Shown piece by piece: positions 1-50,352 of a DNA stretch of 53,681 bases. Source of the stretch: Candidatus Nomurabacteria bacterium (lineage in GTDB: Bacteria > Patescibacteriota > Minisyncoccia > Phycocordibacterales > UBA918); assembly GCA_020632155.1 (NCBI GenBank), contig JACKGE010000003.1:1-53681 (forward strand). Direction: 5' to 3'. Under the pieces are notes generated by a model. The model saw nothing but the letters and a program-made list of their open reading frames with translations. It ran no database searches and was not told the DNA's origin. How positions within the stretch are numbered: the stretch's first letter is position 1; each line of letters starts with the position of its first letter. The translations under genes were made by a program, and so were the position numbers.

Positions 1-28
1 TAAGTGGTGTAAATTCTTAAGTAGCTTT

Positions 29-790
29 ATGTACAGGAAGAACGCTGAAAAGCTTCTTTTGCGAGTAAAAGAGGCTGATCAAATATTAACCGAACTTAAA
101 GTAGTTTTTGAGAATATCAACAAACAACACCGGTCTGGAGGGGGTCATCTTGAATATGCATACCTGGAACATTTTTTAGGTGAAGCCGAAGATGTTTCAT
201 ATCTATTCCAAATTCTTTTTAATGATCAGAGAACTCAAAAATTTTTGCCGATTGCTAACAGAATGTTATTTGAGGTCATTCTAAAAAGTGAGCATTTAAT
301 AAAACTCAAAAACACCGGCAGCGATAATGAAATTCTGAGTCTATTATCTAAAGACATGGCTTCAGCAATGTCCGCACTTGATGATGCGGTTGGATCTGCC
401 GAAGGAAATCCAGCAGCTGATACCTTGGTTAAAATACACTTAGTCAATAAAATTTTAGGAACAGATTTTGATCTAAGTAAAATCAAATCGAATACTCCGA
501 CCTTTCCAAAAATTAAGGACCTTTGTGATAAAAGTAGTATTTGCATTAAAGATTACTGTGCTGATAAGCTCTACCATTTTTATGTTCAGTGGAGCTGGAA
601 TAATCATTCAAGACTAGGAAATGACTTTTCACTTGAAAAAAATTCTGACTATTTGTTAAACAATCAAGCGGAGTGCTTTATTGAAATGTATCTAAAAAAC
701 ATAAAATTACTGTCTAAGCACGCAAATGCTTTAGGTTGTGAGGAAAAAGTAACGGAAATAATGAAACAGATAGGTATTCAGAATATCTAA
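29..790 (+). CDS. AT-rich hypothetical protein, possibly DUF5677/HEPN-like helical family
   Basis: 253-aa ORF, visibly AT-rich. It has NRMLFEVILK and FYVQWSWNNH segments resembling the R..LE and Y..S...H pattern of DUF5677-like proteins (by eye). Confidence 0.55.
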   Translation: MYRKNAEKLLLRVKEADQILTELKVVFENINKQHRSGGGHLEYAYLEHFLGEAEDVSYLFQILFNDQRTQKFLPIANRMLFEVILKSEHLIKLKNTGSDNEILSLLSKDMASAMSALDDAVGSAEGNPAADTLVKIHLVNKILGTDFDLSKIKSNTPTFPKIKDLCDKSSICIKDYCADKLYHFYVQWSWNNHSRLGNDFSLEKNSDYLLNNQAECFIEMYLKNIKLLSKHANALGCEEKVTEIMKQIGIQNI

Positions 791-828
791 ACAACAAAAC
801 CACCCAATTGGGTGGTTTTGTTGTTTAG
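787..828. terminator. Perfect 42-bp palindrome overlapping the stop codon; probable bidirectional terminator
   Basis: ctaaacaacaaaaccacccaa followed by its exact reverse complement ttgggtggttttgttgtttag. Confidence 0.75.
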
Positions 829-962
829 AAGTTGACGAGCCTTCTCGAGTGCTCGAACCAGCTCTCTAATTGGTGACCCATTAACGTGGCTTTCAGAACT
901 GTATAGGGGGCGGAAATATATTAAATCGAGCATACAAATACTCACACCACAAACCTCTCAAT

Positions 963-996
963 AAGAAAGGGCCGCACCACAGAAGTGATACAGCCC
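963..996 (-). terminator. Intrinsic terminator of the 1021-1431 gene
   Basis: Minus strand gggctgtatcac-ttct-gtggtgcggccc (12-bp stem, 3 G-U pairs), then tttctt. Confidence 0.7.
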
Positions 997-1020
997 GTGA
1001 AGTCGAACTTGTCGTTGCTG

Positions 1021-1431
1021 TCAGCGATAGCCGCTCATCACAGCCATCGCCAGCAGTTCGCCGAGACCGCCCATCTCGCCTTCGTCTTTCTTGTTCTTGA
1101 AGCCGACGACCTGCCAGCCCTCGCAGAGCTTGACCCCGTCGTATTCGTTGCCGTCGGACGGAACGTGCTGCCGGAGGGAGTCGAAGAAGATGGCGTGGAT
1201 GGCGGCGTGCCGCTTATTCGCCTCATGGTAACGGCGCGCCGCTTCCACCGACTCGTTGCCGACCTCGTCGACCAGGTTGTAGAGATGGCGCAGATGCTCG
1301 GGAACCTCACCAATGACCGTATCTTCGTCGGGCTTGAACTGCCCGAGGGCTGATGGCCTCGGCTCGGAGGAGCGCTGCATCGCTTCGACGATACGCTGGG
1401 CGATGTCGAGTTCTTTGGTGTTGTCCGTCAT
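1021..1431 (-). CDS. Hypothetical protein, 136 aa, start MTDNTKE
   Basis: GC-rich ORF. SD agaggag precedes the ATG at 1431, with a promoter upstream and a terminator downstream. The longer ORF-track start is not supported. Confidence 0.75.
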   Translation of the reverse strand: MTDNTKELDIAQRIVEAMQRSSEPRPSALGQFKPDEDTVIGEVPEHLRHLYNLVDEVGNESVEAARRYHEANKRHAAIHAIFFDSLRQHVPSDGNEYDGVKLCEGWQVVGFKNKKDEGEMGGLGELLAMAVMSGYR

Positions 1432-1487
1432 TGGATGTCTCCTCTGTGTTGACGGTGGATAGAACGGGTGAACAAAATACGCACAAA

Positions 1488-1515
1488 ATATTAGCACACA
1501 ATAGATATTTGTCAA
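1488..1515 (-). promoter_or_regulatory. Sigma70-type promoter of the 1431 gene
   Basis: Minus strand TTGACA-N16-TAATAT with a TG extended -10 (tgc-taatat). Confidence 0.65.
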
Positions 1516-1646
1516 GCTCTTGTGTAAGCTATTAACCCTTACAATAAGCCATTTCAAAGGCACTCCTTTTGATGAATATGAAACTGTAGTTCTGATCACT
1601 CTATGTGGCATCCTAAAATATAAAGCAGTATAAAGTATTTTACGAT

Positions 1647-1663
1647 GTGACCCTACGGGGAAT
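1647..1663 (-). repeat. 17-bp direct copy of the tRNA-Glu 3' end (att-like)
   Basis: gtgaccctacggggaat is identical to 2010-2026. A further partial copy, caagtctcctacgggga, is at 1786-1802. Confidence 0.85.
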
Positions 1664-1820
1664 AATCTTGACGGTCACAAAGTCATTTTGTTTCGTTACC
1701 TCACAAAATAACAAGTGCCGCGGGACACAGCTCACTTGTTCGCAAGCTCACATCGTTCCGCTGGTTCGATTCCCACGCAAGTGCCCAAGTCTCCTACGGG
1801 GACCGCTTCGCTTATCTCTC

Positions 1821-2010
1821 CTTACAGGAGCAGTACACCTTTTGGGTATTTTAGTTCGTTTCTCTCCTAAAATTCCACAAAAGCTTTTCGATTCCCACGT
1901 AAACAGTCTCCCAGACTGTTTACTTGTAGGGTCACTTGATGCACGCTTACGCGCGCCGTACCAAAAAGCATTGGTTTAAAATAAACCAATGCTTTTTGGT
2001 ACTTGTCAAG
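1821..2010. repeat. tRNA-trailer element: constant scaffold, split inverted copy of the tRNA 3' end, and terminator hairpin
   Basis: ttcgattccc (1887-1896) and gtagggtcacttga (1926-1939) are reverse complements of 2021-2030 and 2006-2019. They are separated by hairpin gtaaacagtct-ccc-agactgtttac. A 21-bp-arm hairpin lies at 1958-2002. Block 1821-1922 is homologous to 50127-50226. Confidence 0.8.
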
Positions 2011-2082
2011 TGACCCTACGGGGAATCGAACCCCGGTTTCGCGCGTGAGAGGCGCGTGTCCTAGCCGCTAGACGATAGGGCC
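2011..2082 (-). tRNA. tRNA-Glu (anticodon CTC)
   Basis: Acceptor GGCCCTA/TAGGGTC, anticodon arm cgcgc-CTCTCAC-gcgcg, T-loop GGTTCGATTCC. CCA is not encoded. Confidence 0.95.
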
Positions 2083-22000: not shown

Positions 22001-24307
22001 TTATATGCGTCCGGTTGCGTGTAAATGTTCAGCCCCTATCTTAACCTGCTGATCGAGTAGTTCAGCAATATTTGGCGGTAATTCAGGCATACCCACACTG
22101 CTTGGGACAGAAAAACCAGCTGCTTGTGCGATGCCTCGCACGTAATGATCAAGTACATGCATCGGTACCAGCTGATTCGCTTCGATATGATCGAGGTCAC
22201 CAATAAAACCAAACTTTTGTAGCAACTCAGGATTAGCCTCAATAGCTTCACGCGTGAGGTCGATGAGCTCTTGCAAATGCCACTGATCCCAACGCCCTAT
22301 CCAATCAAAGGATGTTATCGGGGGCATTCCTTCAACTTTATTCATTGCCATCTGCCAAAAGTTCCCACCCTCCGGCATTTTATGCCAACCAAAGAGCGTC
22401 TCAGGCGTCTCTAGATTACCGTGCATATCACGAAGCCCGCCAGCGTTTACGTCAGGCTGGGTGTCTGGCTCTATCTTCTCACTCTCACCCGCCAGTTCAG
22501 ATTCTGTAGTATCCGGCGACGAATCAACTTCAGGGACAGTTTGTTTTTGTAATGGGTCAGGATACTGATCAGGTGTCGCTTCAACCCCATTACCTAATGG
22601 CGCTGATTCCACCTCTGGTTGCGGCGTGACTGTAGCATGAACAGGTGGTTGCGGTGCAATAATCTCTCCTGGTGGGGCAGTAGCTTCAGGCGGGGTTGAT
22701 GGTGTGGATTCAATGGGACTCACTGCCTCGAGTGTATTTGAGTTAGAAATATCGCCGTAAGATACGTCAGGAACATTTGATTCTAGCTGTGGCGCAGTCG
22801 CACTATCAATAGGTTGCGATTCGCCGGATAAACCGGTACCGAGAGAAGCAGCGAATCCACTCAATTTTGATGTAGTGTCAACAAGACGCCGTGAGCCGTC
22901 TTGTAATTTAACTCCTTTATCTATCTGGGCCTCGAGCTTAACAAAGGTAGTTCCATCCTTATCAAATAGATTAGATCCCAATTGAGTGGTTAGCTTTTTT
23001 GTCTTCCGTTCCAGTGGCTTAGTGAATAAGTTATTACCAAGCACTTGCGTACCAAAACGGGTACCTAAACCAACAACAGCAGGCATGCCTTTAAGCAATA
23101 TAATTGAACCAATAATTGCTGGAGTGATATAGCGAAAAGCCCTATCAACCGCCTCTTCGTCCAATCTAGCGGCCTCTGCACCTTTACGAATACCTCCAAC
23201 TGCACTCCGTAGTCCGCGATTGATGAAACTGAGTGGGCTTTTCATAAATGCGTACTCGGCTTCTTCTTTGGCAATATCAACGCGGCGACGGTAAACACTT
23301 TCGGTCAGTTTGTAGGCAAGCATGGCCTGATAACGCTTTAGTACTTCATCCTCTGCAGATTCTTTGTATCGTGCTAGTTGCTTTGCTGCTTCAAAATAAA
23401 CACGCCTAGACTCAATGGTGCGTTGGTGTAAATCATGGAGTTCGTCATTTAAGCCCGTGTCGTTCCCAAACCATCGTTCTAATTTGTGTGCAAGCCCTGA
23501 CATACTGAAGACACCTTTTTCTTCCTTACTACGTAGGTATATACGGTACTTACTTTCAAATTCTTTTCCTAGAGTATCACTTACCTTTCGTGCTTCAGCC
23601 CACCTCGCTTTTGCTTCTTCATAGGTCAGTTGTTTTTCTAAATCTGCAGGAGCTACATACTCTTCTTTTTTTGACGATGAGGATTGTTTCGAAACTATTT
23701 TTTCTCTATTAGGTCCAAAACGCTCCATAAGCTCCGGTGATATATCAGCTCTGCCGGTTTGTGTAACAACGTACGGCTGTTCGTTTGGCTGTAGAGTAGT
23801 TACTGTTTCGGTTGTCAGCGCCTCATCTTCAGCTACCTCGTCTGCATCTGCGTCTTCTAAAGCAACACCATGTTCCTTGGCGTATGCAACAATTTCTTGG
23901 TAACGCTCTCGTAACCGTCCCAAAGATTGTTCGGCGTTCTCTCTGTCCTTAGATTCAGGAATCTTACCCTCGTCTAAACATGATTGTAGAGCTAGTCGGT
24001 CCTTACGAGCCTTTCCAACAAACAAAAGAAAAGTGCCAGTAAGCCGGTTTATTTCGTCATCCCACTCTGTCGTCTCGTCATTTGGAACAAGACGAGGTGC
24101 AATTGCTCGCGCATGAGTTTCTATCTCGTCTATCTCAGCCAACTTTTTAGCAGTGTCAGCTAGATGTTCTTCAAGAGTCTTTGCAGCCTCATGTTCGCGG
24201 ACATCAGGAATTTGTTCCTGATCTTCTTTAGAAGCTAAAGTTTCATCTTTGCTCGACTGATACTGAGGATGCTTTCTTAATTTATCAAAAGGATTTTCTT
24301 TATTCAT
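22001..24307 (-). CDS. Large hypothetical protein with coiled-coil N-terminus, hydrophobic mid-segment and acidic Pro-rich linker
   Basis: 768-aa ORF, overlapping the stop of the upstream ATPase gene. Confidence 0.75.
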   Translation of the reverse strand: MNKENPFDKLRKHPQYQSSKDETLASKEDQEQIPDVREHEAAKTLEEHLADTAKKLAEIDEIETHARAIAPRLVPNDETTEWDDEINRLTGTFLLFVGKARKDRLALQSCLDEGKIPESKDRENAEQSLGRLRERYQEIVAYAKEHGVALEDADADEVAEDEALTTETVTTLQPNEQPYVVTQTGRADISPELMERFGPNREKIVSKQSSSSKKEEYVAPADLEKQLTYEEAKARWAEARKVSDTLGKEFESKYRIYLRSKEEKGVFSMSGLAHKLERWFGNDTGLNDELHDLHQRTIESRRVYFEAAKQLARYKESAEDEVLKRYQAMLAYKLTESVYRRRVDIAKEEAEYAFMKSPLSFINRGLRSAVGGIRKGAEAARLDEEAVDRAFRYITPAIIGSIILLKGMPAVVGLGTRFGTQVLGNNLFTKPLERKTKKLTTQLGSNLFDKDGTTFVKLEAQIDKGVKLQDGSRRLVDTTSKLSGFAASLGTGLSGESQPIDSATAPQLESNVPDVSYGDISNSNTLEAVSPIESTPSTPPEATAPPGEIIAPQPPVHATVTPQPEVESAPLGNGVEATPDQYPDPLQKQTVPEVDSSPDTTESELAGESEKIEPDTQPDVNAGGLRDMHGNLETPETLFGWHKMPEGGNFWQMAMNKVEGMPPITSFDWIGRWDQWHLQELIDLTREAIEANPELLQKFGFIGDLDHIEANQLVPMHVLDHYVRGIAQAAGFSVPSSVGMPELPPNIAELLDQQVKIGAEHLHATGRI

Positions 24308-27045
24308 ACATCTGCTTTACGATACCGTGCGGCAATCTCCGCCTCTATCTCCTCACGCGCTCGACCGTAGCGCAGATAGCTTTGTTCTATTAAACCATGT
24401 ACGCGACCAGTATCCACCTCGCGTGGTGGCGGTGTAAGAACACTAAATGGTTTGGTTGGTACACCACCAGCCAATACCCGCATATAGGCATGATAGTTTG
24501 GAATATTCATAAGGTCGCTCGCCTCAAACACCGGCTCAAACTGTTTTTCAAGGAAGGTGGCGTCCTCGCTACCAACACGAAACGCTGCCAATGAACCAAC
24601 GTTACCAAAGACCGAATCGCGGATACCATCCTCAAGCTGTGCAATGTACTGGTGTGCTACCGTAAGGGCCAGTTTGTACTTTCGTGCTTCGGAGAGAATA
24701 GCGGAGATAGAATCCGTGGTGACATTTTGAAATTCATCAATATGAAGATAAAACGGCGCAAAACTTTTACTTGGATCATCAACGCGTGAAAGTGCCGCCA
24801 TAAGGAGTTTACCAACCACAATCATACCAATGAGATTGGCATTGATCTCCCCAAGGCGACCTTTGGAGAGATTCACCAAAAGTATCTTGCGCTCGTCCAT
24901 GACCTTACGGAAATTGAAGGCGGAGTGTTGCTGACCAATGATTGGCCGCATGTAGTCGTTGGCGGTAAAGACATCAAACTTTGAAACAATGTACGGCACA
25001 ATGTTTTCTAGCGACGCTTCCCCGCCAGCTTTAGTGGCAATTTCCTGCCAAAACTGCACCACCACCGGATTGATTGCCCGCTCTAGCTTATGACGGCGAT
25101 ACCGCGCATCGGACATGACCCGCGAAATATCCATGAGCGTATTGCCACTGTCGGGATCTTCCATCACAAGTAGTGTGGCGTTTCGAAAATACTGCTCAAA
25201 CATCGGCCCCATTGATTCGGGATTCGCACCATAGAGACGTTGGAATATTGAAAAGAGTTCGTTTACGACAAAAGTCTTTTGCTCTGGATGGGCTCGATCG
25301 TATTCAAGCATGTTAAGACCAATCACTCGGTCAGTACGTGATGGGTCAAAGTAAATGACATCTTGCTCGCGCTCTTTTGGCACCGCAGCCAACACATCTT
25401 CGATGTCGGTACCATGAGGATCGATCATACAGACGCCCGCACCAGACTCGATGTCTTGAATAATCATATTCTTCATGAAGACCGACTTACCCGTACCGGT
25501 CTGTCCGATGATGTAGAAATGTCGCTGACGATCTGCTTCACTGATGAAAATTTGTTTTTCACTACCACGGTGGTCATTAGTACCAAGTAAAGTCCCTTCA
25601 TTCGGGAAGGTGCCCGTTGCTGGTGCGGTGCGGCTGCGCAATTGCCTGAATTGCGGCGATGAACTCACACCGTTGCCGGTAAAGTGTGAAAGAAGGGACA
25701 CCTCCTCTAAAGACAGCGGTAGCAGCTGGGTCGGCCTAAACTCACGAAACGAAAACGCTTTGATGTCACTACGCAGTGCAGACCCTGACGGGTGCATAAA
25801 GGTAAAGCGATTGCCGCTAGTATTCTCAAACTGATTGAGCGCTGCCTCCACCTCAAAGAGTATTTGCTCTGCACGTACTTTATCTTTAGCAGAGACCGCG
25901 ATACGGATGTTGGTCTCAAGAATCGGGTGTGCCACTTTCTGTTGAAAGGCTTCGGTGGCATCGCTGTCTATGGTCTCACTGCCGTAGTGTGATTCATTCT
26001 TGGATTTGTCTTTATTAAAGAATAGCTCCTTGGTTGATTCAAACACTTCTCCCATGAGGCTACTACGGCGAATCGCCTCACTGGCCTTCATACCATCGCG
26101 TACGCGTTTTAATACTTCTTGATACGAATGCACATAGTTGTGTTTGCCGCTTCGCACCATAATCTGCAGTGCTGCTCCCCCACCCTCAAACTCGATCTTA
26201 GAAAAGGCATTTAAGATGATGTCGAGCGGATCAGCACTAAAACTCTCCGCACTGCGCAGTGGATAGATAGGGTGACGCTTCAATTTCACTACCGAGGTTA
26301 GTGACACACCGCCATCCACAAAAATATTGTAGTCGTGTTTTTGTTCGGTCAGATTGGCATTTGGGTAGAGCGAAAATAGTTGCTTCTCAAAGAGGTCAAT
26401 ATAGTTGTTGGGCACAGCAACATAAAAGATGATATCGTCACTCTTATCTGCCACGGCAATCTCAATAGCCATATGCTCTTTGCCGCTACCGCGTCCCACA
26501 CTCTGCATGCCAGCATAGAACTGTTCCATAAGTGCAGTAAGCTGCTCCACCGTGCGTTCGCGGTCCTCGTCAGCATGTTCGGGGAGCGCCACCTCAAAGA
26601 GCGTCATGTGGAGTATCTCCCATGGCGGCACTCCTTCCCTCAGGTCTTGCATCTGCTTCCCCGCCTTGATGGACTCGATCAGCTGGCGGTGGACATTGTC
26701 GGTCACGTAGGCATCATCAAGCTTCTCAAGTACCTTAAGGGCATTATAGATACCCTCTTCAAGCGCCAGCGTGATTATCTCTTCTGTTTTATCTGTAGCC
26801 ACTTCGATAGTAGTCGCAGCCGCTTGCACTTCAGCCTCGGACAAACGGCGTTCTTTGGCTAAGACCGTCTCTGGTGTGAACGATACATATTCTTTAAGCT
26901 CCTGCCGACCAATGGTCTCGATGTCGGCCTGATCCATTTCTGGATTACGGTCTAACAGTGCTCGCTCCTTAGCGGCTATTTGCTCACGCAAAAAAGCGAT
27001 TTCCTCTTCAGGCGAGGCAAACTGCCGTTCGGGCGCTTTTTCCAT
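24304..27045 (-). CDS. VirB4/TraG/TraD-like (FtsK-HerA superfamily) ATPase
   Basis: Walker A IIGQTGTGKS, IDPHG, Walker B LHIDEFQN, LSEARKYKL, AHQYIAQL. Confidence 0.9.
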   Translation of the reverse strand: MEKAPERQFASPEEEIAFLREQIAAKERALLDRNPEMDQADIETIGRQELKEYVSFTPETVLAKERRLSEAEVQAAATTIEVATDKTEEIITLALEEGIYNALKVLEKLDDAYVTDNVHRQLIESIKAGKQMQDLREGVPPWEILHMTLFEVALPEHADEDRERTVEQLTALMEQFYAGMQSVGRGSGKEHMAIEIAVADKSDDIIFYVAVPNNYIDLFEKQLFSLYPNANLTEQKHDYNIFVDGGVSLTSVVKLKRHPIYPLRSAESFSADPLDIILNAFSKIEFEGGGAALQIMVRSGKHNYVHSYQEVLKRVRDGMKASEAIRRSSLMGEVFESTKELFFNKDKSKNESHYGSETIDSDATEAFQQKVAHPILETNIRIAVSAKDKVRAEQILFEVEAALNQFENTSGNRFTFMHPSGSALRSDIKAFSFREFRPTQLLPLSLEEVSLLSHFTGNGVSSSPQFRQLRSRTAPATGTFPNEGTLLGTNDHRGSEKQIFISEADRQRHFYIIGQTGTGKSVFMKNMIIQDIESGAGVCMIDPHGTDIEDVLAAVPKEREQDVIYFDPSRTDRVIGLNMLEYDRAHPEQKTFVVNELFSIFQRLYGANPESMGPMFEQYFRNATLLVMEDPDSGNTLMDISRVMSDARYRRHKLERAINPVVVQFWQEIATKAGGEASLENIVPYIVSKFDVFTANDYMRPIIGQQHSAFNFRKVMDERKILLVNLSKGRLGEINANLIGMIVVGKLLMAALSRVDDPSKSFAPFYLHIDEFQNVTTDSISAILSEARKYKLALTVAHQYIAQLEDGIRDSVFGNVGSLAAFRVGSEDATFLEKQFEPVFEASDLMNIPNYHAYMRVLAGGVPTKPFSVLTPPPREVDTGRVHGLIEQSYLRYGRAREEIEAEIAARYRKADV

Positions 27046-28768: not shown

Positions 28769-30269
28769 ATGAATACCATCGGAGCCAAGATCGCTGACCT
28801 GCGTGAGGGTATGGGCCTTACGCAGGCAGAACTTGCCAAAAAAATTAAAACCACCCAAAGCGCTGTCGCTCGCCTTGAAGGCGGCAAGCAGAATGTCAGT
28901 ACTGAAACACTTAAGAAGATCAGTCGCGCTCTTGGTAAGAACCTCCTCACCTCCTCTCCTGGCAGTCTCAGTCTCGACATCACGGGTGGTACTAAACTTA
29001 CTGGCACTATTGAAACCAATACTTCTAAAAATGGTGCCGTGGCGCTCCTGTGCGCGTCACTTCTCAACCGTGGCAAGACCACGTTGCGGCGCATGCCGCG
29101 TATCGAAGAGGTCCACCGTCTGGTTGAAGTACTTGAGAGTATCGGTGTTTCGGTAACATGGAGTGGTAGTGATCTTACTATTGTGCCGCCTAAAAAATTC
29201 GATCTCTCCAAGATTGACCGTGAAGCTGCGGAACGTACTCGCAGTATTGTGATGTTCATCGGCTCGCTTATGCATCATCTGAGCAGCTTCAAGTTGCCGC
29301 AGTCTGGCGGGTGCAAACTCGGTAGTCGTACTGTACAACCTCATTTTTACGCACTTGAAGATTTTGGTGTTGATATCAAGACCACTGAAAAGGATTTCGT
29401 AGTAACGGTCCATAAGCGTCCGGCTGGTGACATCATTCTCTATGAGTCCGGCGACACAGTGACCGAGAACGCCCTCTTTGCGGCTGCACTACCCCAAAGA
29501 CCACCACTATTCGCTATGCTTCCGCCAACTACATGGTGCAGGAAGTGTGCGCCTTTACGTACCTGCGGTGTCACTATTGAAGGAGTCAGGACCACTAATT
29601 TGTCGGTCACTGGTGTCAGTGAGATCAACACTGATATTGAATACACACTAGCTGAAAGACCCGACCGACAGTATGTTCTTTCTTGCTGCTGCCATTGTGA
29701 CCGGTCTCAAGTATCACCATTACCCGTTGCCCAATTGAGTTCTTGGAGTTGGAGCTCCTCAAACTCAGCAAGATGGGATTTCAATACAAAGCGAGCAAGC
29801 CATACCTTAGCCACAATGGCCTTACTAAGCTGGTGGATATCACTACCAAAACCGTCAAAACTAATAGCGCTTCACGAGAAGATCTACGCCCGCCCCGTAC
29901 CCTGGCCTTAATATCGACAATCTCCCCTTCTTTGCGGTCATTGCCACCCAAGCTGAAGGCCAAACACTTATTCATGACTGGGTATACGAAAAACGCGCCC
30001 TTTACTTCACTGAACTAGACAAACTCGGCGCGGATACCGTCTTAGCTGATCCACATCGTATCTTTGTCCACGGCAAAACCAAACTCCGCAGTGCTGAACT
30101 TATTTGTCCGCCGGCTCTGCGTCCTGCCACTATTTTGCTTATCGGCATGCTCGGAGCTGAGGGACGCAGCGTGCTGCGCAATATTTACAGTATCAATCGT
30201 GGGTATGAAAACCTCGTTGAGCGCCTCGCTTCGCTCGGCGCCGACATCAAATACCTCGAGGAGTTCTAG
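28769..30269 (+). CDS. murA: XRE-HTH fused UDP-GlcNAc 1-carboxyvinyltransferase, frameshifted several times as sequenced
   Basis: N-terminal LTQAELAKKIKTTQSAVARLE, SKNGAVALL and catalytic-Cys loop SGGCKLGSR. The C-terminal YPGLNIDNLPFF...CPPALRPA...INRGYE is recovered in another frame ending at TAG 30269. Confidence 0.85.
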
Positions 30270-44816: not shown

Positions 44817-47318
44817 TTATTCTTGACGCCTTCTCTGCCTCTCCAAACCTTCACGTATGTCATTTGGAAACTCCAGCCCTGCCGCTTCTTCTTTGCCTGC
44901 AAGAAATAGTTCTAAAAAGACTTCCTCGGCTGTTCTCAATTGCATACCCCCAATATTGGAAAGGTATCTAATTAATTCACTCTCATGAGCCGGTTCCTCA
45001 TCGTCAAAGGGTTGTCGTATATCAGGAAAAACCCTCAGCCCTAGTTCAGCCATTTCATGATTAAATCTTTGTTGCCAAGCAGCTCTCAGGTATGCATCAG
45101 GCATTATTTTGAAAATATTGTGTCTGTAGATATGGATAGCAAGAATAAAACCTATAGCTGCGCGAGCATCAGGAATTGATTGAAAATATGTATTCCAAGC
45201 CGTCTCTACTACATTGCGTAATTCTTCGTTTGAATGGAGTTCGGAATATAAAATTGCGAAACCAGACAGTTCAAATAAGTTGACCAATGGCTCTGTTGAG
45301 TAAATAATTTTACTTTCCTCTTCTCCCCAAGCATCAATCTCATCCCGAGTTCTTTGTTGGTGGATAATAGACGCATTAAGTACTACCGGGAAAAGTCTCG
45401 CAAATCTTTCATGGTCATTGTCAGCGCAAGCCTCATAGCATTCCTCTATTCCAATTCGGAGTGCATGGCTGAAATAATCAGGCACCTCGTCCGTTGTAAC
45501 AAGTGTTTGAATTCGGGGAAGTAATAACACGAGAATCTCGGAAACAGTTTTTTCTTTACTGAGTGCCCAATCCAACTCTTCATCCATATTGAATTCTGGC
45601 CATGGTAGATCCAACAAAGTCTGATGTTCAGCGCATCTTTCCAATTCTGCACGAAATCGGTGTACCATACTTGTATATTTTTTTGTAAACTCCAACCATC
45701 TTTGTAAAAGTTGCACCGAATAACCATACTGTTCAAGTTCAATAAGCTTATTTACTGTTTTGTTGAAGTAACCTTGGTGTATGTTTTTAACAAACTCAAA
45801 GTACTCTTTGACTGCATATTGATGACGTTGTAATGAATAGGTTTTTTTGTACCACTCAGCTGTTATCAATTTACCTTCGATTTCAAACTCATTACTTAAC
45901 TCTGAAGCAAGAACCTCCATTCTTTCGATGGTTGCAATTGGGAAATCTGAAGTATAGACACTTTTTATCCCTTCTCGCCATTTAACTCTCTCAACTTTTC
46001 TCAAAAATATATTACCCGGTTCAGTATCTAAATATTTCGCAAACCCAAGTAAGAAAGACAGCGCTACCCTTCCTCTAGAGTCAACAAAAGCCATCTTTCC
46101 TTTAGTGACAGAATTTTGCTTATCTTTTTTAAGGCTTTCAAAAAAGTGCTCGTCAAGAATAAAGAAATCTTCAAATATCTTTTTTGCAGCTTCAACGTCG
46201 AGTCTTTCTCCGTAGAATTCTGGTATGGCAACTATTATTTCATGGTGACTATAGAGAACCTCAAAGTCTTCATTGTCAAAGTGGTTTTTAAGTAGAGCCA
46301 CAAACATTTTAGTTAATTGCTCTTCAAACCATGTGTGATTTATAACGGTTTTAGGGTTAATACTTGTTCCAGTTTCAATTGCTATGCGTTTCTCAATATC
46401 ATCAGCTAAAGCCCAGTTACCGTATTGATATTTAGTTTTAAACCAAAGACTTTTTGTTGGTATTCCTGACTTTAACCTTGAATACTCATAAAATAACCAA
46501 GCAAGGTAGCGCACTGCGACTCCAATTTCATGTGCGTTGAGTTTGACTTTATTTATACCGAAATCCAAGTATTTCTCCGCCAATTGAAAGGATTGCACTA
46601 CTTGTTGGCGGTGATAGTTTTGCAAAAAGTTTTTATTCCAAGAATTAGATGGAGGCCGAACACTTTTGACTGAGTCAGTTATCTTTTTTGTTATCCTTGG
46701 GAAGATTGTTGAAGGTTCTATGAAGTTATACACTTCACTGCTAACTTTCCAGAAGCGAAGAACAATATAGCTCACGCAAATTAACAGAAAAATCAAACTC
46801 GCTGGATGAGGTAGGTGACCAAGACTTTTGGCAACTAAAAGGTAGAGGGATAGAATGCCTGTAATCTCGATTGTTTTTACATATTGAACTCCATGTGGTG
46901 AAGTAAAAAAGTGATTTTTTACATCTTGGTCAGCATTTACGAGCAATGAACTGGCTATACTCGATATGGCAGTAAAATATAAACCAATGAAAACTCCAGC
47001 AATACTCGCAACTGCACCCAAAAAAGTATCGATTGCTTCACTTGAAATTGTTTCTGGGAGAGTAAATTGGTATACGAATATGTGGTAAGACTCTAGTACC
47101 GCAAAGATTACCACAGCATAGAGTGCCGAGAGTATGAAGCCTACCAAGGTAGAACGAAGTAGTCGAATGTCACTTTTTCGCTTGCGTTGCCTTTCATCTT
47201 CTAGGTGTGAATATTTCCAGAAAGCGAAATAAGGCACATTTAAAAACCAATTCTTAAATTGCCAGTAAATTTTCCTTCGCTGCAACCAGCTAATCAGGTT
47301 CGCTTTCATCACGGCCAT
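44817..47318 (-). CDS. Large membrane protein, 833 aa, with 4 N-terminal TMs (DUF2254-like) and a long helical domain
   Basis: Four hydrophobic segments in the first ~190 aa; AT-rich; TGA-TAAAAT 7 nt before the ATG. Confidence 0.75.
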   Translation of the reverse strand: MAVMKANLISWLQRRKIYWQFKNWFLNVPYFAFWKYSHLEDERQRKRKSDIRLLRSTLVGFILSALYAVVIFAVLESYHIFVYQFTLPETISSEAIDTFLGAVASIAGVFIGLYFTAISSIASSLLVNADQDVKNHFFTSPHGVQYVKTIEITGILSLYLLVAKSLGHLPHPASLIFLLICVSYIVLRFWKVSSEVYNFIEPSTIFPRITKKITDSVKSVRPPSNSWNKNFLQNYHRQQVVQSFQLAEKYLDFGINKVKLNAHEIGVAVRYLAWLFYEYSRLKSGIPTKSLWFKTKYQYGNWALADDIEKRIAIETGTSINPKTVINHTWFEEQLTKMFVALLKNHFDNEDFEVLYSHHEIIVAIPEFYGERLDVEAAKKIFEDFFILDEHFFESLKKDKQNSVTKGKMAFVDSRGRVALSFLLGFAKYLDTEPGNIFLRKVERVKWREGIKSVYTSDFPIATIERMEVLASELSNEFEIEGKLITAEWYKKTYSLQRHQYAVKEYFEFVKNIHQGYFNKTVNKLIELEQYGYSVQLLQRWLEFTKKYTSMVHRFRAELERCAEHQTLLDLPWPEFNMDEELDWALSKEKTVSEILVLLLPRIQTLVTTDEVPDYFSHALRIGIEECYEACADNDHERFARLFPVVLNASIIHQQRTRDEIDAWGEEESKIIYSTEPLVNLFELSGFAILYSELHSNEELRNVVETAWNTYFQSIPDARAAIGFILAIHIYRHNIFKIMPDAYLRAAWQQRFNHEMAELGLRVFPDIRQPFDDEEPAHESELIRYLSNIGGMQLRTAEEVFLELFLAGKEEAAGLEFPNDIREGLERQRRRQE

Positions 47319-47357: not shown

Positions 47358-47525
47358 AGGAAAAACAGAAAAATAGGTCAGACACCTTTGTTTTGAGGAA
47401 AATGTGTTCTAAATTTAGATCTTAGTGTTCACCCCCTGGGTTTAACCTTGGGATACGAGAATGTTCAAAATCCTATGAAATATAGAAAAGCCGCCACCCC
47501 GTTGTGAGACGAAGCTTTGGCTTTT
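47358..47525. repeat. Composite repeat A
   Basis: ggtcagacacctttgttttgaggaaaatgtgt..., degenerate ccctgggtttaaccttggg palindrome, tail aatgttcaaaat...gaaaagcc...ggctttt shared with B. Confidence 0.85.
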
Positions 47526-47606
47526 CATCTCACCGAAGTGGCGATTAGCGATAGCGACCCGTGTAGTAGCAACCACTGTTGCCGATGCACACGCCGTTCT
47601 TGTAGT

Positions 47607-47780
47607 GAGGAAAATAGGGTCAGACACCTTTGTTTTGTAAGGAAAATAGGGTCAGACACCTTTGTTTTGAGGAAAATGTGTCCTAATTTATATCTTGGTG
47701 TGTTCCGCTAGGTGGAAAATGTTCAAAATTCTATGAAATATAGAAAAGCCACCACCCCGTGAGACGAAGCTTTGGCTTTT
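47607..47780. repeat. Composite repeat B (core doubled)
   Basis: 29-bp ggaaaatagggtcagacacctttgttttg at 47609 and 47641; tail nearly identical to A. Confidence 0.85.
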
Positions 47781-47947
47781 TGAGATTATTGGTATATATA
47801 AAACTAGTTTAAGTGACTAGTGTTTACAAGCATTGAACCATTACGAGATATTTGACATTATAAAAAAATATCGTATCTTTTTTGATGACAGCTTGGATTG
47901 TTCGCACCAAGTGTCTGATGATGATGAGCGAACATAGGAGAAGTACC

Positions 47948-48427
47948 TTGGAAGATGCACGTCAACCCCGTCAGTATAAAATATCGGTCTGCACTCGTAA
48001 CAATTTGCTCGTACTGAAAAGCGAATCGCCACTACTTGCGCAATCCCGGGCTGAAACTTTCGACTTCCCGCTGAGAGAATCCTCCAACCACGCCTTATCC
48101 AACACGACGGATTTCGGCGCCAATTTGGTCAAGCGTATCTGGGAGAAAGTCTCTGGCGCAACGAACGTTCGGCTTCTGTTGTATGAGGCCACTGCCAATC
48201 TCGGGGGTTTCTATGAACCAAGAAAGACCTTGGAGCAGATGGAGGAGATCCTCAAAAGCATATGCAATGATGCTTGGTTGTCGCCGACGATCACAACCGA
48301 AACAATCCCCTTCCTCTCACATGAAACGACAAGAGCCGTTCCTTATACACACCCCTTCGGAAGGCTTCCGCTTCGACTCCACGAGCAGCGACAACGCGGT
48401 CGTAAAAGGCTCGTGCTTGTGAGGTAA
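47948..48427 (+). CDS. Hypothetical protein, about 159 aa (TTG start)
   Basis: SD aggag 7 nt before an in-frame TTG at 47948, TTGACA at 47852, hairpins after the stop. Confidence 0.55.
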   Translation: MEDARQPRQYKISVCTRNNLLVLKSESPLLAQSRAETFDFPLRESSNHALSNTTDFGANLVKRIWEKVSGATNVRLLLYEATANLGGFYEPRKTLEQMEEILKSICNDAWLSPTITTETIPFLSHETTRAVPYTHPFGRLPLRLHEQRQRGRKRLVLVR

Positions 48428-48532
48428 TCGCAACGAGTTCAGAGGGCGGCAAACCGGCCGCCCTCATCCGCCATGCAAAGACTGCGTGGCGGTTTTTGTT
48501 ACTCAAAATAATTGAAAAACAGGTTGAAAACA

Positions 48533-48648
48533 GGGTCAGACACCTTTGTTTTGAGGAAAATGTGTCCTAATTTAGATTTTAGTGTTCACCCCTAGGTTAA
48601 ACCTAGGGATTCGATACCAGATTTTGAGTTTATAAAACAAAACCGCCG
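48533..48648. repeat. Composite repeat C
   Basis: 48533-48618 is identical (86 bp) to 49235-49320 and contains palindrome ccctaggtt-a-aacctaggg. Confidence 0.9.
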
Positions 48649-48649
48649 C

Positions 48650-49087
48650 TCATTTTAGAGCAGCGGCAAGCTTCATCACGTACTTTCTTTTTTTGGGCGG
48701 GAGCCTGTTGATGCTGAGCGGGATATTCAGTAAACCTTGCATATGAACGAGTGAGGCGACCTGTTTGAGTATCCTGTCTTTGCAATAGGAGTCACAGGCT
48801 TCTTGAATCATCCTGATATCATCAAGGCTTGGCACGATGTACTTTTCTGGAAAAATGTACCTGCAGATCAATATCCACCGAGCGAGCTCGTATCCCGGTT
48901 CGAGCCCTAGTGTGCCTTTTCCTTCCCTGGCACACTGTAACCGATACAGAATCAGGTTTTTTTCGTCCGCCGTTAAGCAGTTGGGAACACCAATACCACG
49001 TAACAATAGGGCTGCTCGCGCCACCAAATAGATGTTGTTGTTTTTTCGACCCTCTTCTAGGAGGGCAAAGAGTTGTGACTCTTTCAT
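48650..49087 (-). CDS. Hypothetical protein, 145 aa
   Basis: SD AGGAGGT before ATG 49087; promoter CTGACA-N16-TATTGT (49115-49142). Confidence 0.7.
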   Translation of the reverse strand: MKESQLFALLEEGRKNNNIYLVARAALLLRGIGVPNCLTADEKNLILYRLQCAREGKGTLGLEPGYELARWILICRYIFPEKYIVPSLDDIRMIQEACDSYCKDRILKQVASLVHMQGLLNIPLSINRLPPKKRKYVMKLAAALK

Positions 49088-49199
49088 CTTCACCTCCTAG
49101 GTTAAACCGAGGACACAATACCATAAAAGTATATTCTGTCAGCTTTGCAGAAATATAATCAACAAGAATTACAATTCCCTATTTGAGCTGTTTATCCTT

Positions 49200-49360
49200 A
49201 AGGAAAATTGGGTCAGACACCTTTAAGGAAAATTGGGTCAGACACCTTTGTTTTGAGGAAAATGTGTCCTAATTTAGATTTTAGTGTTCACCCCTAGGTT
49301 AAACCTAGGGATTCGATACCGGAGTTTGATTTTGAGTTTATAAAATGAAAGACCGCCCGA
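49200..49360. repeat. Composite repeat D (core doubled)
   Basis: Exact 25-bp tandem aaggaaaattgggtcagacaccttt x2 (49200-49249), then 86-bp identity with C and shared attttgagtttataaaa...accgcc. Confidence 0.9.
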
Positions 49361-49381
49361 AGGCGATCCCTCATGGCGGTA

Positions 49382-49837
49382 TTATTTCGAGCGACTGAAG
49401 TACATTGCTCCATGATCCTCGAGGAACGTGTCTTCGAGTTGGTCACTGACATTTTCTGGCACCATCATGACATAGGCCATGACAGCCGCCACTCTGAGGT
49501 CGTCAATCTGGAGTTTCGTGCGACGTTCGCGCTTTTGTGTGTGTTTGACCCGCCGCCTCACAAGCTCGATTAATCCTGCAACTGCGACGTCCATGCATTG
49601 GACTAGAACTTGATCAGCATAGTCAGTCTCGTCGGGATTCCAGTCGTAGGCTTCAATCAAGTCGTCGAACATAGGCTCACAGCACACCTTAATTATGTTG
49701 CGAGCTTTTTCTTCAACGACGACGTCTCCGGCTTTATCGCGAACACTCATCCACAGATCAAGGGCAAGTCGCAGGTGAATGGTGCCGTAGTCGTCGTCAT
49801 CGGTGATACGGATACCAAGGAACTTTTTATCGACCAT
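49382..49837 (-). CDS. Hypothetical helical protein, 151 aa
   Basis: SD AAGGAGG before the ATG; hairpin and T-rich tract after the stop. Confidence 0.75.
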   Translation of the reverse strand: MVDKKFLGIRITDDDDYGTIHLRLALDLWMSVRDKAGDVVVEEKARNIIKVCCEPMFDDLIEAYDWNPDETDYADQVLVQCMDVAVAGLIELVRRRVKHTQKRERRTKLQIDDLRVAAVMAYVMMVPENVSDQLEDTFLEDHGAMYFSRSK

Positions 49838-49949
49838 GGATGCCTCCTTCGATATGTGTACTGTAACCCCAGACTAGTTAATATTGCAAGCCGAACAGTT
49901 GACTTAGTTCGGTAGAATGAAGTTAAACGCCATTAAAAGCGATACTTTT

Positions 49950-50280
49950 GCTCCGGCGGCAGGAATTTCTTTCATTACATGAGCAGTATAGGTTTTCAAT
50001 ATTTCAAATCCAAGTATTCCTGAAATATTTGATTAACCTCCTAAAACAGTCCGTATGGACTGTTTTAGCCTGCGACCAATTGATTACGAGAATCATTTAT
50101 GCGCTCCGGCGGCAGAAATTTCGAAACTTACAGTTTCAGTACACCTTGTCAGTATTTTGTTTCCTTACGTTACAAAATACTAGGCAAGGTCTTCGAATCC
50201 TAACGAAACAGTCTCCCAGATTGTTTCTCCGGGGAGCTTATAACGCAAAAATGCCCTCATCGGGCATTTTTACTAACAAG
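49950..50280. repeat. tRNA-Asn trailer element with a split inverted 3'-end copy and two degenerate direct 3'-end copies
   Basis: ttcgaatccta (50192-50202) and ccggggagctt (50229-50239) flank hairpin aaacagtct-ccc-agattgttt. Direct copies gctccggcggca are at 50103 and 49950. Terminator at 50247-50271. Confidence 0.8.
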
Positions 50281-50352
50281 CTCCGCCGGTAGGATTCGAA
50301 CCTACGACCAATCGGTTAACAGCCGACTGCTCTACCGCTGAGCTACGGCGGA
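50281..50352 (-). tRNA. tRNA-Asn (anticodon GTT)
   Basis: TCCGCCG/CGGCGGA acceptor, gtcgg-CTGTTAA-ccgat, GGTTCGAATCC. CCA is not encoded. Confidence 0.96.

What the first reader, a model, noticed from the sequence alone, without database searches (positions are those of the whole stretch)
47358..49360. Four composite REP-like repeats separating single-gene cassettes (integron-like array without an integrase)
Seen: the core ggtcagacaccttt occurs six times (47376, 47618, 47650, 48534, 49211, 49236) in four units, A-D. The core is followed by gaggaaaat and preceded by aggaaaat or a similar gaaaa run, as in a target-site duplication. C and D share 86 identical bp, including palindrome ccctaggtt-a-aacctaggg. 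A and B share a ~65-bp tail ending in a gaaaagcc...ggctttt hairpin. Each interval holds one unrelated passenger: a gene remnant (A-B), a 159-aa ORF on + (B-C), a 145-aa ORF on - (C-D), then a 151-aa ORF before the tRNA-Asn trailer. The large two-gene operon abuts A. Inference: repeat-mediated capture and shuffling of gene cassettes. The AAAGGTGTCTGACCC and AGGTTAAACCT motifs recall REP hairpins linked to RAYT/HUH transposases, which would act in trans.
Basis: partly seen in the sequence, partly recalled or inferred. Interest (0 to 1): 0.78.

Follow-up and report, generated by a model that had tools for sequence, protein, structure and literature searches.

The report
Repeat-bounded gene cassettes beside tRNA-Asn
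Four copies of a roughly 130-160-base repeat separate single orphan genes in a strain-variable island next to a tRNA-Asn gene of an uncultured candidate-phyla-radiation-like bacterium, and contigs from other samples show these genes being deleted or duplicated exactly at the repeats, so it behaves like a small cassette array although it is neither an integron nor a REP/RAYT system.

Summary
The 14-nt core occurs six times, all on the + strand, only within 47.36-49.36 kb. It lies in four homologous units plus two micro-duplicated extra cores.

The units sit in a low-GC, all-orphan island (about 43.7-50.28 kb) that abuts the 3' end of tRNA-Asn. The island also carries two decayed tRNA-3'-like fragments. 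Another strain diverges from the window exactly at the tRNA end.

Contigs from other samples, otherwise identical to the window, show three kinds of rearrangement:
- a clean deletion of both middle cassettes (B x D);
- circle-or-tandem junctions of the 145-aa cassette (D x C);
- a circle-or-tandem junction of the 180-aa cassette (C x B).

Distant relatives that carry the 145-aa gene family have analogous arrays beside SmpB-tmRNA. There a conserved ~95-nt repeat flanks different cassettes.

No attC architecture, integrase, transposase, terminal inverted repeats or dispersed copies were found. The "target-site duplication" is an internal direct repeat of the unit.

Best reading: an accretion-type cassette array with att-like junction repeats. 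Whether a trans-acting recombinase or plain homologous recombination does the work is unresolved. I rate it a new variant of a known kind, of moderate to high interest.

The parts
43727..47318 (-). Two overlapping orphan ORFs (391 aa, 43727-44902; 833 aa, 44817-47318). They form the low-GC left part of the island. The 833-aa ORF starts 50 nt from unit A.
   Evidence: ORFs. GC is 0.38 against about 0.49 for the background. No Pfam, PADLOC, PHROGs, NCBIfam or PDB match.
47364..47525 (+). Unit A: head with core 47376-47389, degenerate palindrome 47434-47452, and the A/B-type tail with a hairpin.
47526..47605 (.). A-B spacer. It has coding-like GC (0.55) and may be a gene remnant; it could not be identified.
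   Evidence: GC, six-frame translation, and only non-significant blastx matches.
47606..47637 (+). B': an extra core (47618-47631) made by a 32-nt tandem duplication of [AGGAAAAT + core].
   Evidence: 32-nt period, 2.3 copies.
47638..47785 (+). Unit B: core 47650-47663, palindrome mostly deleted, A/B-type tail 47715-47780.
47786..48521 (+). Cassette 1: promoter-like site 47852-47879, ORF 47885 (or 47918) to 48427 (167-180 aa), terminator-like hairpin 48468-48492.
   Evidence: Three homologs at 50-58% identity, one of them lying between rpsI and grpE in another genome.
48522..48647 (+). Unit C: core 48534-48547, perfect palindrome 48590-48608, C/D-type tail.
48648..49198 (-). Cassette 2: terminator-like hairpin 48667-48642, 145-aa ORF 48650-49087, and a fifth partial unit copy with palindrome (about 49085-49125; palindrome 49096-49112) lying over the ribosome-binding site and 5'UTR. 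Promoter-like site at 49142-49115.
   Evidence: 18 homologs at 58-68% identity.
49199..49223 (+). D': an extra core (49211-49224; its last base is the first base of unit D) made by a perfect 25-nt tandem duplication.
   Evidence: 25-nt period, 100% identity.
49224..49357 (+). Unit D: core 49236-49249, palindrome 49292-49310, C/D-type tail.
49351..49949 (-). Cassette 3: terminator-like hairpin 49368-49351 and 151-aa ORF 49382-49837.
   Evidence: 19 homologs in the representative library.
49950..50279 (-). Stretch next to the tRNA, holding two decayed tRNA-3'-end-like fragments with a module of about 110 nt each (frag2 49950-50070, frag1 50103-50226). Strain variants diverge from the window at 50017 and 50124.
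   Evidence: family D6.
50280..50352 (-). tRNA-Asn(GTT). Its 3' end (50280) is the right boundary of the island.
   Evidence: L038 diverges from the window exactly at 50280.

Best explanation
The array is the inner part of a strain-variable genomic island joined to the 3' end of tRNA-Asn in an uncultured Patescibacteria/CPR-like bacterium.

Anatomy. Single-gene modules, each with a promoter-like site and terminator of its own, are separated by a private family of ~125-160-nt direct repeats. Read on the minus strand, the strand of the tRNA, a unit runs: T-run after the upstream gene's terminator, tail, 19-bp palindrome, head, core AAAGGTGTCTGACCC, then (T/A)(A/G)TTTTC.

Shown. The units are the points at which modules are lost and duplicated or circularised in the natural population.

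Inferred origin. I infer that the array grew by serial insertion (accretion) of small integrase-less cassettes at this hotspot. On that reading the units are att-like junction repeats, analogous to those between cassettes in the tmRNA-linked arrays of relatives. A recombinase encoded elsewhere or since lost, or RecA acting on the 42-86-bp identical blocks, now recombines neighbouring units. The products are deletions, tandem duplications and possibly free circles.

Extra cores. B' and D' arise from exchange or slippage between the two AGGAAAAT copies that bracket each core.
For: The island:
- GC falls to 0.36-0.45 between 43.7 and 50.3 kb, against about 0.49 elsewhere.
- Every ORF in it is an orphan.
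- Two tRNA-3'-like fragments lie next to tRNA-Asn.
- L038, 99.8% identical on the flank, diverges exactly at the tRNA 3' end. Its tRNA 3' half differs at three positions, two of them compensatory in the T-stem.
- L036 diverges at 50124 and L005 at 50017.

Recombination at the units:
- L004 equals the window with a clean 1,586-bp deletion. Its junction lies inside the 42-nt block shared by B and D, and it has no other difference from the window.
- L010 and L011, from two samples and apparently two assembly pipelines (judging by contig names), carry a D'+D-left / C-tail hybrid unit that joins the two ends of the 145-aa cassette.
- L013 starts with the C-left flank joined to unit B, ahead of the 180-aa cassette.

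Relatives:
- Homologs of the 145-aa gene lie in islands next to SmpB-tmRNA.
- L027 has four ~95-nt direct repeats separating a 145-aa homolog, a PemK/MazE pair, a HAD hydrolase and a further ORF. L018 has three such repeats, around a 145-aa homolog and a DUF305 gene. L028 has one beside other genes, found by nhmmer at E=1.7e-14 although L028 was not used to build the model.
- The block shared by L027 and L018 starts exactly at ATCTCCACC, which matches the tmRNA 3' end. It ends about 10 nt before the equivalent point of the next repeat.
- The window units, in the syntenic orientation, show weak similarity to these repeats (AAATTAGGACAC ... CAAAG-GGT(G)TCT(G/A)AC). A column-permutation test gives z=3.5, p about 0.003.

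Precedent: serial integration at a tRNA hotspot, partial-tRNA remnants, and subpopulations with excised or tandem junctions are all described for tycheposons (bioRxiv 10.1101/2020.12.28.424599).
Against: - No integrase, transposase or HUH gene appears among 51 window ORFs scanned. None is recorded in the 10-20 kb flanks of the relatives' arrays.
- Units A-D have no significant similarity to tRNA-Asn or to the tRNA-like fragments.
- A profile built from the relatives' repeats does not find the window units. Their homology therefore rests on one post-hoc test.
- Every observed crossover lies inside the longest identity block that the two partner units share. Homologous recombination predicts exactly that.
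- Units A and B have a decayed or deleted palindrome.
- Circle and tandem duplication cannot be told apart from contigs. The L013 junction rests on 12 nt at a contig end.
- The rest of the genome could not be searched for further copies.
Confidence: 0.5

Rival explanations
1. The repeats have no dedicated function. An intergenic segment (terminator-distal flank plus a decayed promoter/RBS-like piece) was duplicated locally inside a fast-evolving island. All gain and loss seen is ordinary RecA-dependent unequal crossing-over or replication slippage between nearby direct repeats.
For: Crossovers fall inside the 42-nt (B vs C/D) and 86-nt (C vs D) identical blocks. The deletion variant is otherwise identical to the window. 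No recombinase gene is nearby. Units A and B are degenerate. About 40 nt of the unit resemble the 5'UTR and ribosome-binding site of the 145-aa gene, as a local duplication would give. No copy exists elsewhere in the window or in public collections.
Against: Homologous recombination does not explain how three unrelated genes, in both orientations, each came to lie between copies of the same unit. Relatives show the same architecture with a conserved repeat beside different cassettes, and the cassette boundaries there fall at a tmRNA-like core.
Confidence: 0.27
2. The units are cis-regulatory modules. The 19-bp palindrome would be an operator for a dimeric regulator, and the GGAAAAT-N-GGGTCAGAC direct repeats would be further binding sites that co-regulate the island genes. 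Recombination between the units would be incidental.
For: The palindrome recurs five times and only in this region (chance 0.15). One copy lies between the predicted -10 element and the start codon of the 145-aa gene. The direct repeats have 25-32-nt spacing.
Against: Units C and D lie downstream of the terminators of the minus-strand genes they follow, not at promoters. The palindrome is decayed in A and deleted in B. No DNA-binding protein is encoded in the island, and the 145-aa protein models as an all-helical bundle with no HTH and no PDB match. The palindrome is absent upstream of the 145-aa homologs in relatives.
Confidence: 0.08
3. The unit is a non-autonomous mobile element (MITE, REP/REPIN or IS200/IS605-type palindrome-associated element) moved in trans by a transposase such as a RAYT. 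It would have inserted repeatedly between the genes.
For: The unit is non-coding, contains a perfect hairpin, and sits next to terminators, a known target of some such elements. The rest of the genome could not be inspected.
Against: There are no terminal inverted repeats and no copy-specific target duplications. All copies are direct and lie within 2 kb, with none in the other 51.7 kb. The pattern occurs at chance level in 185,579 species genomes and in JGI metagenomes, and not at all in IMG/VR. No HUH or DDE gene is in the window.
Confidence: 0.07
4. This is a true integron remnant: a cluster of attC sites lacking an integrase (CALIN).
For: The array consists of single orphan genes separated by similar ~130-nt repeats on one strand, less than 4 kb apart. 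This matches the overall look of sedentary integron arrays (PMC4889954).
Against: No R''(RYYYAAC)...R'(GTTRRRY) pair with complementary arms exists in the region. No long bulged hairpin forms on either strand. There is no IntI. Genes lie in both orientations and carry promoter-like sites of their own.
Confidence: 0.04

Closest known systems
Tandem accretion of integrative elements at tRNA/tmRNA genes: tycheposon islands of Prochlorococcus (bioRxiv 10.1101/2020.12.28.424599), and integrase-less cis-mobilisable elements (CIMEs) bounded by att sites in Streptococcus thermophilus (the latter from my own knowledge)
   Same: The island sits at the 3' end of a tRNA and holds partial-tRNA remnants. 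Its content differs between strains of one species. Subpopulations carry excised or tandem junctions. Modules lacking an integrase lie between direct repeats.
   Different: The modules here are single genes of 0.55-0.75 kb. Repeats A-D are not recognisable copies of the tRNA 3' end. No tyrosine recombinase is present in the island or within 47 kb.
Sedentary chromosomal integron cassette arrays and CALIN (PMC4889954)
   Same: Arrays of mostly orphan single genes are separated by lineage-specific ~100-130-nt repeats, which resemble each other more within an array than between lineages. Toxin-antitoxin cassettes occur in the relatives' arrays. The junctions seen are compatible with circular intermediates.
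   Different: There is no attC secondary-structure architecture and no IntI. Cassettes have promoter-like sites and terminators of their own and lie in both orientations. The array is anchored at a tRNA (a tmRNA in relatives) rather than at an attI site.
REP/REPIN sequences with RAYT transposases
   Same: Short, conserved, non-coding repeats that contain a hairpin.
   Different: REPs are dispersed genome-wide in tens to hundreds of copies, are themselves imperfect palindromes, often occur as inverted pairs, and flank a RAYT gene. Here there are six direct copies in 2 kb, none elsewhere in 53.7 kb, and no RAYT.
Unequal crossing-over or slippage between nearby direct repeats (general bacterial genetics; my own knowledge)
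   Same: A deletion product and a duplication-type junction are both seen, with crossovers inside the identical blocks.
   Different: This accounts for turnover but not for how unrelated genes came to lie between copies of one repeat.

Membership tests
REP/REPIN-RAYT | Many copies dispersed through the intergenic regions of the genome | tested here: not met
   There are six cores in 2 kb and none in the other 51.7 kb, by exact/2-mismatch search and by nhmmer profiles of head and tails. The rest of the genome was not available.
REP/REPIN-RAYT | The repeat is itself a short imperfect palindrome, often present as inverted pairs | tested here: not met
   All six cores are on the + strand. The core forms no stable hairpin; only the separate 19-bp palindrome and the terminators fold.
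REP/REPIN-RAYT | A RAYT (Y1 HUH transposase) gene flanked by the repeats | tested here: not met
   No transposase family appears among 51 ORFs scanned. A gene elsewhere in the genome could not be tested.
Integron / CALIN | attC sites: R''-L''...L'-R' imperfect inverted repeat that folds into a bulged hairpin | tested here: not met
   No RYYYAAC...GTTRRRY pair lies 40-140 nt apart in 47.3-49.4 kb. Single-strand folds show only short local hairpins. The IntegronFinder covariance model was not available.
Integron / CALIN | Integron integrase (IntI) nearby (for a complete integron) | tested here: not met
   No Phage_integrase or IntI hit in the window.
Integron / CALIN | Cassettes mostly promoterless and co-oriented with the array | tested here: not met
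   Gene orientations are +, -, -. Promoter-like sites occur at 47852-47879 (+) and 49142-49115 (-), and each gene has its own terminator. The promoter calls are consensus matches only.
tRNA-linked island built by accretion (tycheposon/CIME-like) | Inserted at the 3' end of a tRNA/tmRNA gene, with strain-variable content | tested here: met
   GC drops across the island. L038 diverges exactly at 50280 and has a variant tRNA 3' half. L036 and L005 diverge at 50124 and 50017.
tRNA-linked island built by accretion (tycheposon/CIME-like) | Partial tRNA 3'-end repeats inside the island | tested here: met
   GCTCCGGCGGCAG(G/A)AATTTC occurs at 49950 and 50103, against GCTCCGCCGGTAGGATTCGAA at the tRNA gene's 3' end (50280). 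The fragments are decayed and were compared by eye and by alignment.
tRNA-linked island built by accretion (tycheposon/CIME-like) | Tyrosine (or serine) recombinase encoded by the element | tested here: not met
   None in the island or the window.
tRNA-linked island built by accretion (tycheposon/CIME-like) | The repeats between modules are copies of the att (tRNA 3') sequence | tested here: not met
   Units A-D against tRNA-Asn and the tRNA-like fragments give no significant local alignment. In the relatives the repeats do end in a tmRNA-3'-like ATCTCCACCA.
tRNA-linked island built by accretion (tycheposon/CIME-like) | Excision and/or tandem junctions in the population | tested here: met
   L004 is a deletion. 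L010 and L011 carry a D-left/C-right junction, and L013 a C-left/B-right junction. This is contig-level evidence only.
MITE | Terminal inverted repeats and copy-specific target-site duplications | tested here: not met
   There are no terminal inverted repeats. The flanking AGGAAAAT is the same in every copy, so it is part of the unit.

The most novel reading that the evidence does not exclude
Patescibacteria-like bacteria have an undescribed, integron-like cassette system. Single genes or toxin-antitoxin pairs would be captured into arrays anchored at tRNA or tmRNA genes through lineage-specific ~95-160-nt att-like repeats. They would be excised as circles by a recombinase encoded elsewhere in the genome or on a helper element. 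The window's array would be an active example.
Probability: 0.25. Interest if true: 0.8.

Novelty: new variant of a known kind. Interest (0 to 1): 0.6.

Why it matters
Genomes of the candidate phyla radiation are tiny, and little is known about how they gain accessory genes. The window shows gene-sized modules being lost and duplicated at defined repeats in an otherwise clonal background. Three further lineages show the same architecture at tmRNA. If a dedicated recombinase is involved, this would be a cassette-capture platform distinct from integrons. If not, it is still a clear natural example of repeat-driven presence/absence variation. It also explains why such loci fragment in metagenome assemblies.

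Tried and rejected
- Pattern scans of public collections. GGTCAGACACCTTTN{2,9}GGAAAAT was searched in 185,579 species genomes, JGI metagenomes and IMG/VR. Hit counts were at chance level (2, 4 and 0), and no hit was homologous to the units. Two further unit motifs gave nothing in IMG/VR.
- Plasmid and phage collections: blastn of unit D found no match.
- Rfam: only the two tRNAs reach the gathering threshold. Nothing credible appears at E<=5 in 47.3-50.3 kb.
- Derivation of the units from tRNA-Asn or the tRNA-like fragments: not significant.
- A profile of the relatives' repeats searched against the window, and the window-head profile searched against the relatives' loci: no hits. Only a post-hoc permutation test supports similarity.
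- A scan of IMG/VR for the relatives' repeat motif: two chance hits at ribosome-binding-site/start-codon contexts.
- The 145-aa protein as the regulator that binds the palindrome: its model is confident (pLDDT 95) but has no HTH and no PDB fold match.
- The A-B "gene remnant": it could not be assigned to any protein.
- Orphan toxin/immunity modules of a polymorphic-toxin locus: rejected. The units are non-coding (stops in all frames), and the array lies at the 5' side of the large operon, not its 3' side.
- Tn3-family inverted-repeat resemblance of the core: noted by eye from memory, but the copies are in direct orientation. Not pursued.
Full report
OBSERVATION

No other match appears at up to 2 mismatches in the 53,681-bp window. 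Chance expectation is 0.36, and no shuffle reaches 6.

The repeat finder, Tandem Repeats Finder and an alignment resolve the cores into four homologous units: A 47364-47525, B 47638-47785, C 48522-48647 and D 49224-49357. Two extra cores come from very local tandem duplication: B' belongs to a 32-nt-period array and D' to a 25-nt-period array that is 100% identical.

All units share a head of about 75-90 nt at 89% identity. C and D share 86 identical bases, including the palindrome CCCTAGGTTAAACCTAGGG. A and B share a different tail of about 65-70 nt that ends in a hairpin. nhmmer profiles of the head and of both tail types find no further copy anywhere in the window. The description is therefore correct and far beyond chance.

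ANATOMY

Read on the minus strand, the strand of the neighbouring tRNA and of most island genes, units C and D begin with the T-run that follows a gene-specific terminator hairpin. These are the hairpins at 48667-48642 after the 145-aa gene and 49368-49351 after the 151-aa gene. After the T-run come the tail, the palindrome and the head. The unit ends with AAAGGTGTCTGACCC followed by (T/A)(A/G)TTTTC.

Each passenger gene has a promoter-like site of its own inside the cassette: 47852-47879 (+) and 49142-49115 (-). Each also has its own terminator. These are consensus matches only.

AGGAAAAT does flank each core, but it is the same in every copy. It is therefore an internal direct repeat of the unit and not a target-site duplication. 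Exchange or slippage between its two copies would produce exactly the extra [AGGAAAAT + core] blocks seen as B' and D'. This step is inference.

A fifth, partial unit copy lies over the ribosome-binding site and 5'UTR of the 145-aa gene. It is about 40 nt long and roughly 82% identical by eye, with the palindrome at 49096-49112.

Single-strand folding shows only the palindrome and the terminators. There is no long bulged hairpin.

CONTEXT

GC falls from about 0.49 to 0.36-0.45 between about 43.7 and 50.3 kb. All five ORFs in this stretch lack any Pfam, PADLOC, PHROGs or NCBIfam family. The stretch ends at tRNA-Asn(GTT), 50280-50352 on the minus strand.

Two decayed tRNA-3'-end-like fragments with an associated module of about 110 nt lie between the 151-aa gene and the tRNA (family D6).

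The remaining ORFs scanned are housekeeping genes: Mur ligase, penicillin-binding proteins, MreB/MreC, tRNA synthetases, Fpg, UDG and Ham1. There is also one HerA/VirD4-like ATPase. No integrase or transposase was found in 51 ORFs.

The nearest Ham1 homologs are only 60% identical. The named ones belong to Zambryskibacteria, Paceibacterota and Saccharimonadales. The organism is therefore a poorly sampled CPR-like lineage.

STRAIN VARIANTS

Exact-protein look-ups gave contigs from several other samples.

- L004 equals the window with a clean 1,586-bp deletion that removes both middle cassettes. The hybrid unit has B's left flank and D's sequence from TTTAGAT onward, so the crossover lies in the 42-nt block that B and D share. 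There is no other difference from the window.
- L010 and L011 come from two samples and, judging by their contig names, two assembly pipelines. Each is a circular permutation of the 145-aa cassette: right end of the cassette, then D', then D-left head, then C-type tail, then the rest of the cassette. That junction is what a tandem duplication or an excised circle formed by C x D exchange would carry.
- L013 begins with C's left flank (AGGTTGAAAACA) joined to unit B and then runs through the 180-aa cassette into C. This is the equivalent junction for that cassette, although it rests on 12 nt at a contig end.
- Other contigs simply stop inside the shared heads, as expected at repeats.

At the tRNA side:
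- L038 is 99.8% identical to the window up to position 50280 and unrelated beyond it. Its tRNA 3' half differs at three positions, two of them compensatory in the T-stem.
- L036 diverges from the window at 50124 and L005 at 50017.

The island is thus a hotspot with alternative contents in one species.

RELATIVES

The 145-aa protein belongs to a real, conserved family. It has 18 homologs at 58-68% identity with many invariant residues. An AlphaFold2 model has pLDDT 95 and seven helices, with no PDB fold match.

Its homologs lie in islands next to SmpB-tmRNA.

- L027 has four ~95-nt direct repeats. They separate a 145-aa homolog, a PemK/MazE pair, a HAD hydrolase and a further ORF.
- L018 has three such repeats, around the 145-aa homolog and a DUF305 gene.
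- L028 has one beside yet other genes. nhmmer finds it at E=1.7e-14, although L028 was not used to build the model. L028 also has a separate 62-nt repeat pair around a Gp49/HTH toxin-antitoxin pair.

L027 and L018 share only the 145-aa cassette with its flanking repeats. The shared block starts exactly at ATCTCCACC, which matches the 3' end of the tmRNA gene. It ends about 10 nt before the equivalent point of the next repeat. That is the boundary pattern expected of recombination at an att-like core.

The window's units, in the syntenic orientation, resemble these repeats weakly. A column-permutation test gives z=3.5 and p about 0.003, while the opposite orientation scores below the null mean. 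A profile search finds nothing, however. I treat homology as possible and unproven. The shared architecture is the firm result.

The 180-aa gene has a homolog lying alone between rpsI and grpE in another genome. None of the relatives' loci carries the window's unit.

KNOWN FAMILIES

- REP/RAYT: the copies are clustered and in direct orientation, the core is not a hairpin, and no RAYT gene is present. The features tested are not met.
- Integron/CALIN: there is no R''/R' architecture, no long hairpin and no IntI. Gene orientation is mixed and promoter-like sites lie inside the cassettes. Not a member, although the overall look matches the description of such arrays in PMC4889954.
- MITE: no terminal inverted repeats and no copy-specific duplications.
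- tRNA-island accretion, as described for tycheposons: the location, the partial-tRNA remnants, the strain variability and the excision/tandem junctions are met. The integrase, and the tRNA identity of the internal repeats, are not.

MECHANISM

Shown: the units are the points at which single-gene modules are deleted and duplicated or circularised in an otherwise identical background.

Inferred: the array was built by serial insertion of small integrase-less cassettes at the tRNA-Asn hotspot. The units would be att-like junction repeats, each belonging to the 3' side of the upstream cassette.

Unresolved: whether present-day exchange uses a recombinase encoded elsewhere or RecA acting on the 42-86-bp identical blocks. 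Every crossover seen lies in the longest identity block that the two units share. Both models predict that outcome.

I give the accretion/att-like reading 0.5 and the reading with homologous recombination only 0.27. The other rivals each get under 0.1.

VERDICT

This is a new variant of a known kind. Interest is 0.6, because the same architecture recurs at tmRNA in other lineages of a group whose mobile genetics is largely unknown.

CAVEATS

- The evidence for variants is at contig level.
- The rest of the genome could not be searched for further unit copies or for recombinases.
- The promoter and terminator calls are consensus matches only.

Noticed in passing
L007:62-125; L001:7742-7907 (identical to L009:621-786): The few public matches to the core pattern include a JGI metagenome contig and a Pirellulales MAG. 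In both, GGAAAAT-N3-5-GGGGTCAGACACCTTTT is itself tandemly repeated in an intergenic region: an exact 32-nt unit twice in L007, and a 43-nt spacing in L001. The number of hits is at chance level, but the shared upstream GGAAAAT and the tandem arrangement are not explained.
   Followed up: partly
window 1821-1921, 49970-50070, 50124-50226: A module of about 110 nt, with a conserved hairpin (AAACAGTCTCCCAGACTGTTT, which carries compensatory changes in one copy), occurs downstream of tRNA-Glu and twice downstream of tRNA-Asn. Identity is about 73% over 101 nt. It may be a second att-like or tRNA-trailer repeat family.
   Followed up: partly
window 1-2010: A second low-GC stretch (0.36 at 1-1000) lies at the 3' side of tRNA-Glu (2010-2082, minus strand). 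It holds two orphan ORFs (29-790 + and 1021-1611 -) and looks like another tRNA-linked island.
   Followed up: no
window 48650-49087 (-): The 145-aa cassette protein belongs to a conserved 19-member family (invariant G-x-LGLE-x-GYELARW). Its seven-helix AlphaFold2 model is very confident (pLDDT 95, pTM 0.88), yet no PDB match reaches E<=0.001.
   Followed up: yes
window 49085-49125: A partial copy of the unit, including the palindrome, overlaps the ribosome-binding site and 5'UTR of the 145-aa gene, just downstream of its predicted -10 element. This is an operator-like position.
   Followed up: partly
L038:1640-1956: In another sample, the same species has a tRNA-Asn whose 3' half differs at three positions, two of them compensatory in the T-stem. 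Unrelated sequence follows. This is what a different element supplying its own tRNA 3' end would give.
   Followed up: partly
L028:7080-8000; L018:1422-1725: In relatives, a separate 62-nt direct-repeat pair brackets a Gp49/HTH toxin-antitoxin pair. The last 41 nt of tRNA-Ile are duplicated exactly 229 nt downstream, within what looks like a second, interrupted tRNA-Ile copy.
   Followed up: no
window 22001-27045 (-): A 913-aa ORF has HerA/VirD4/TraG-like ATPase domains and lies next to a 768-aa orphan ORF. Together they may be a DNA-translocation or conjugation-like module, about 20 kb from the island.
   Followed up: no
window 44007-44017: Contigs from two other samples (L040, L041) are identical to the window and both stop here, inside the 391-aa ORF. 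This suggests another strain-variable junction near the left edge of the low-GC region.
   Followed up: no
window 28769-29911 (+): This ORF combines an N-terminal Cro/C1-type HTH domain with an EPSP-synthase/MurA-like domain, an unusual fusion.
   Followed up: no
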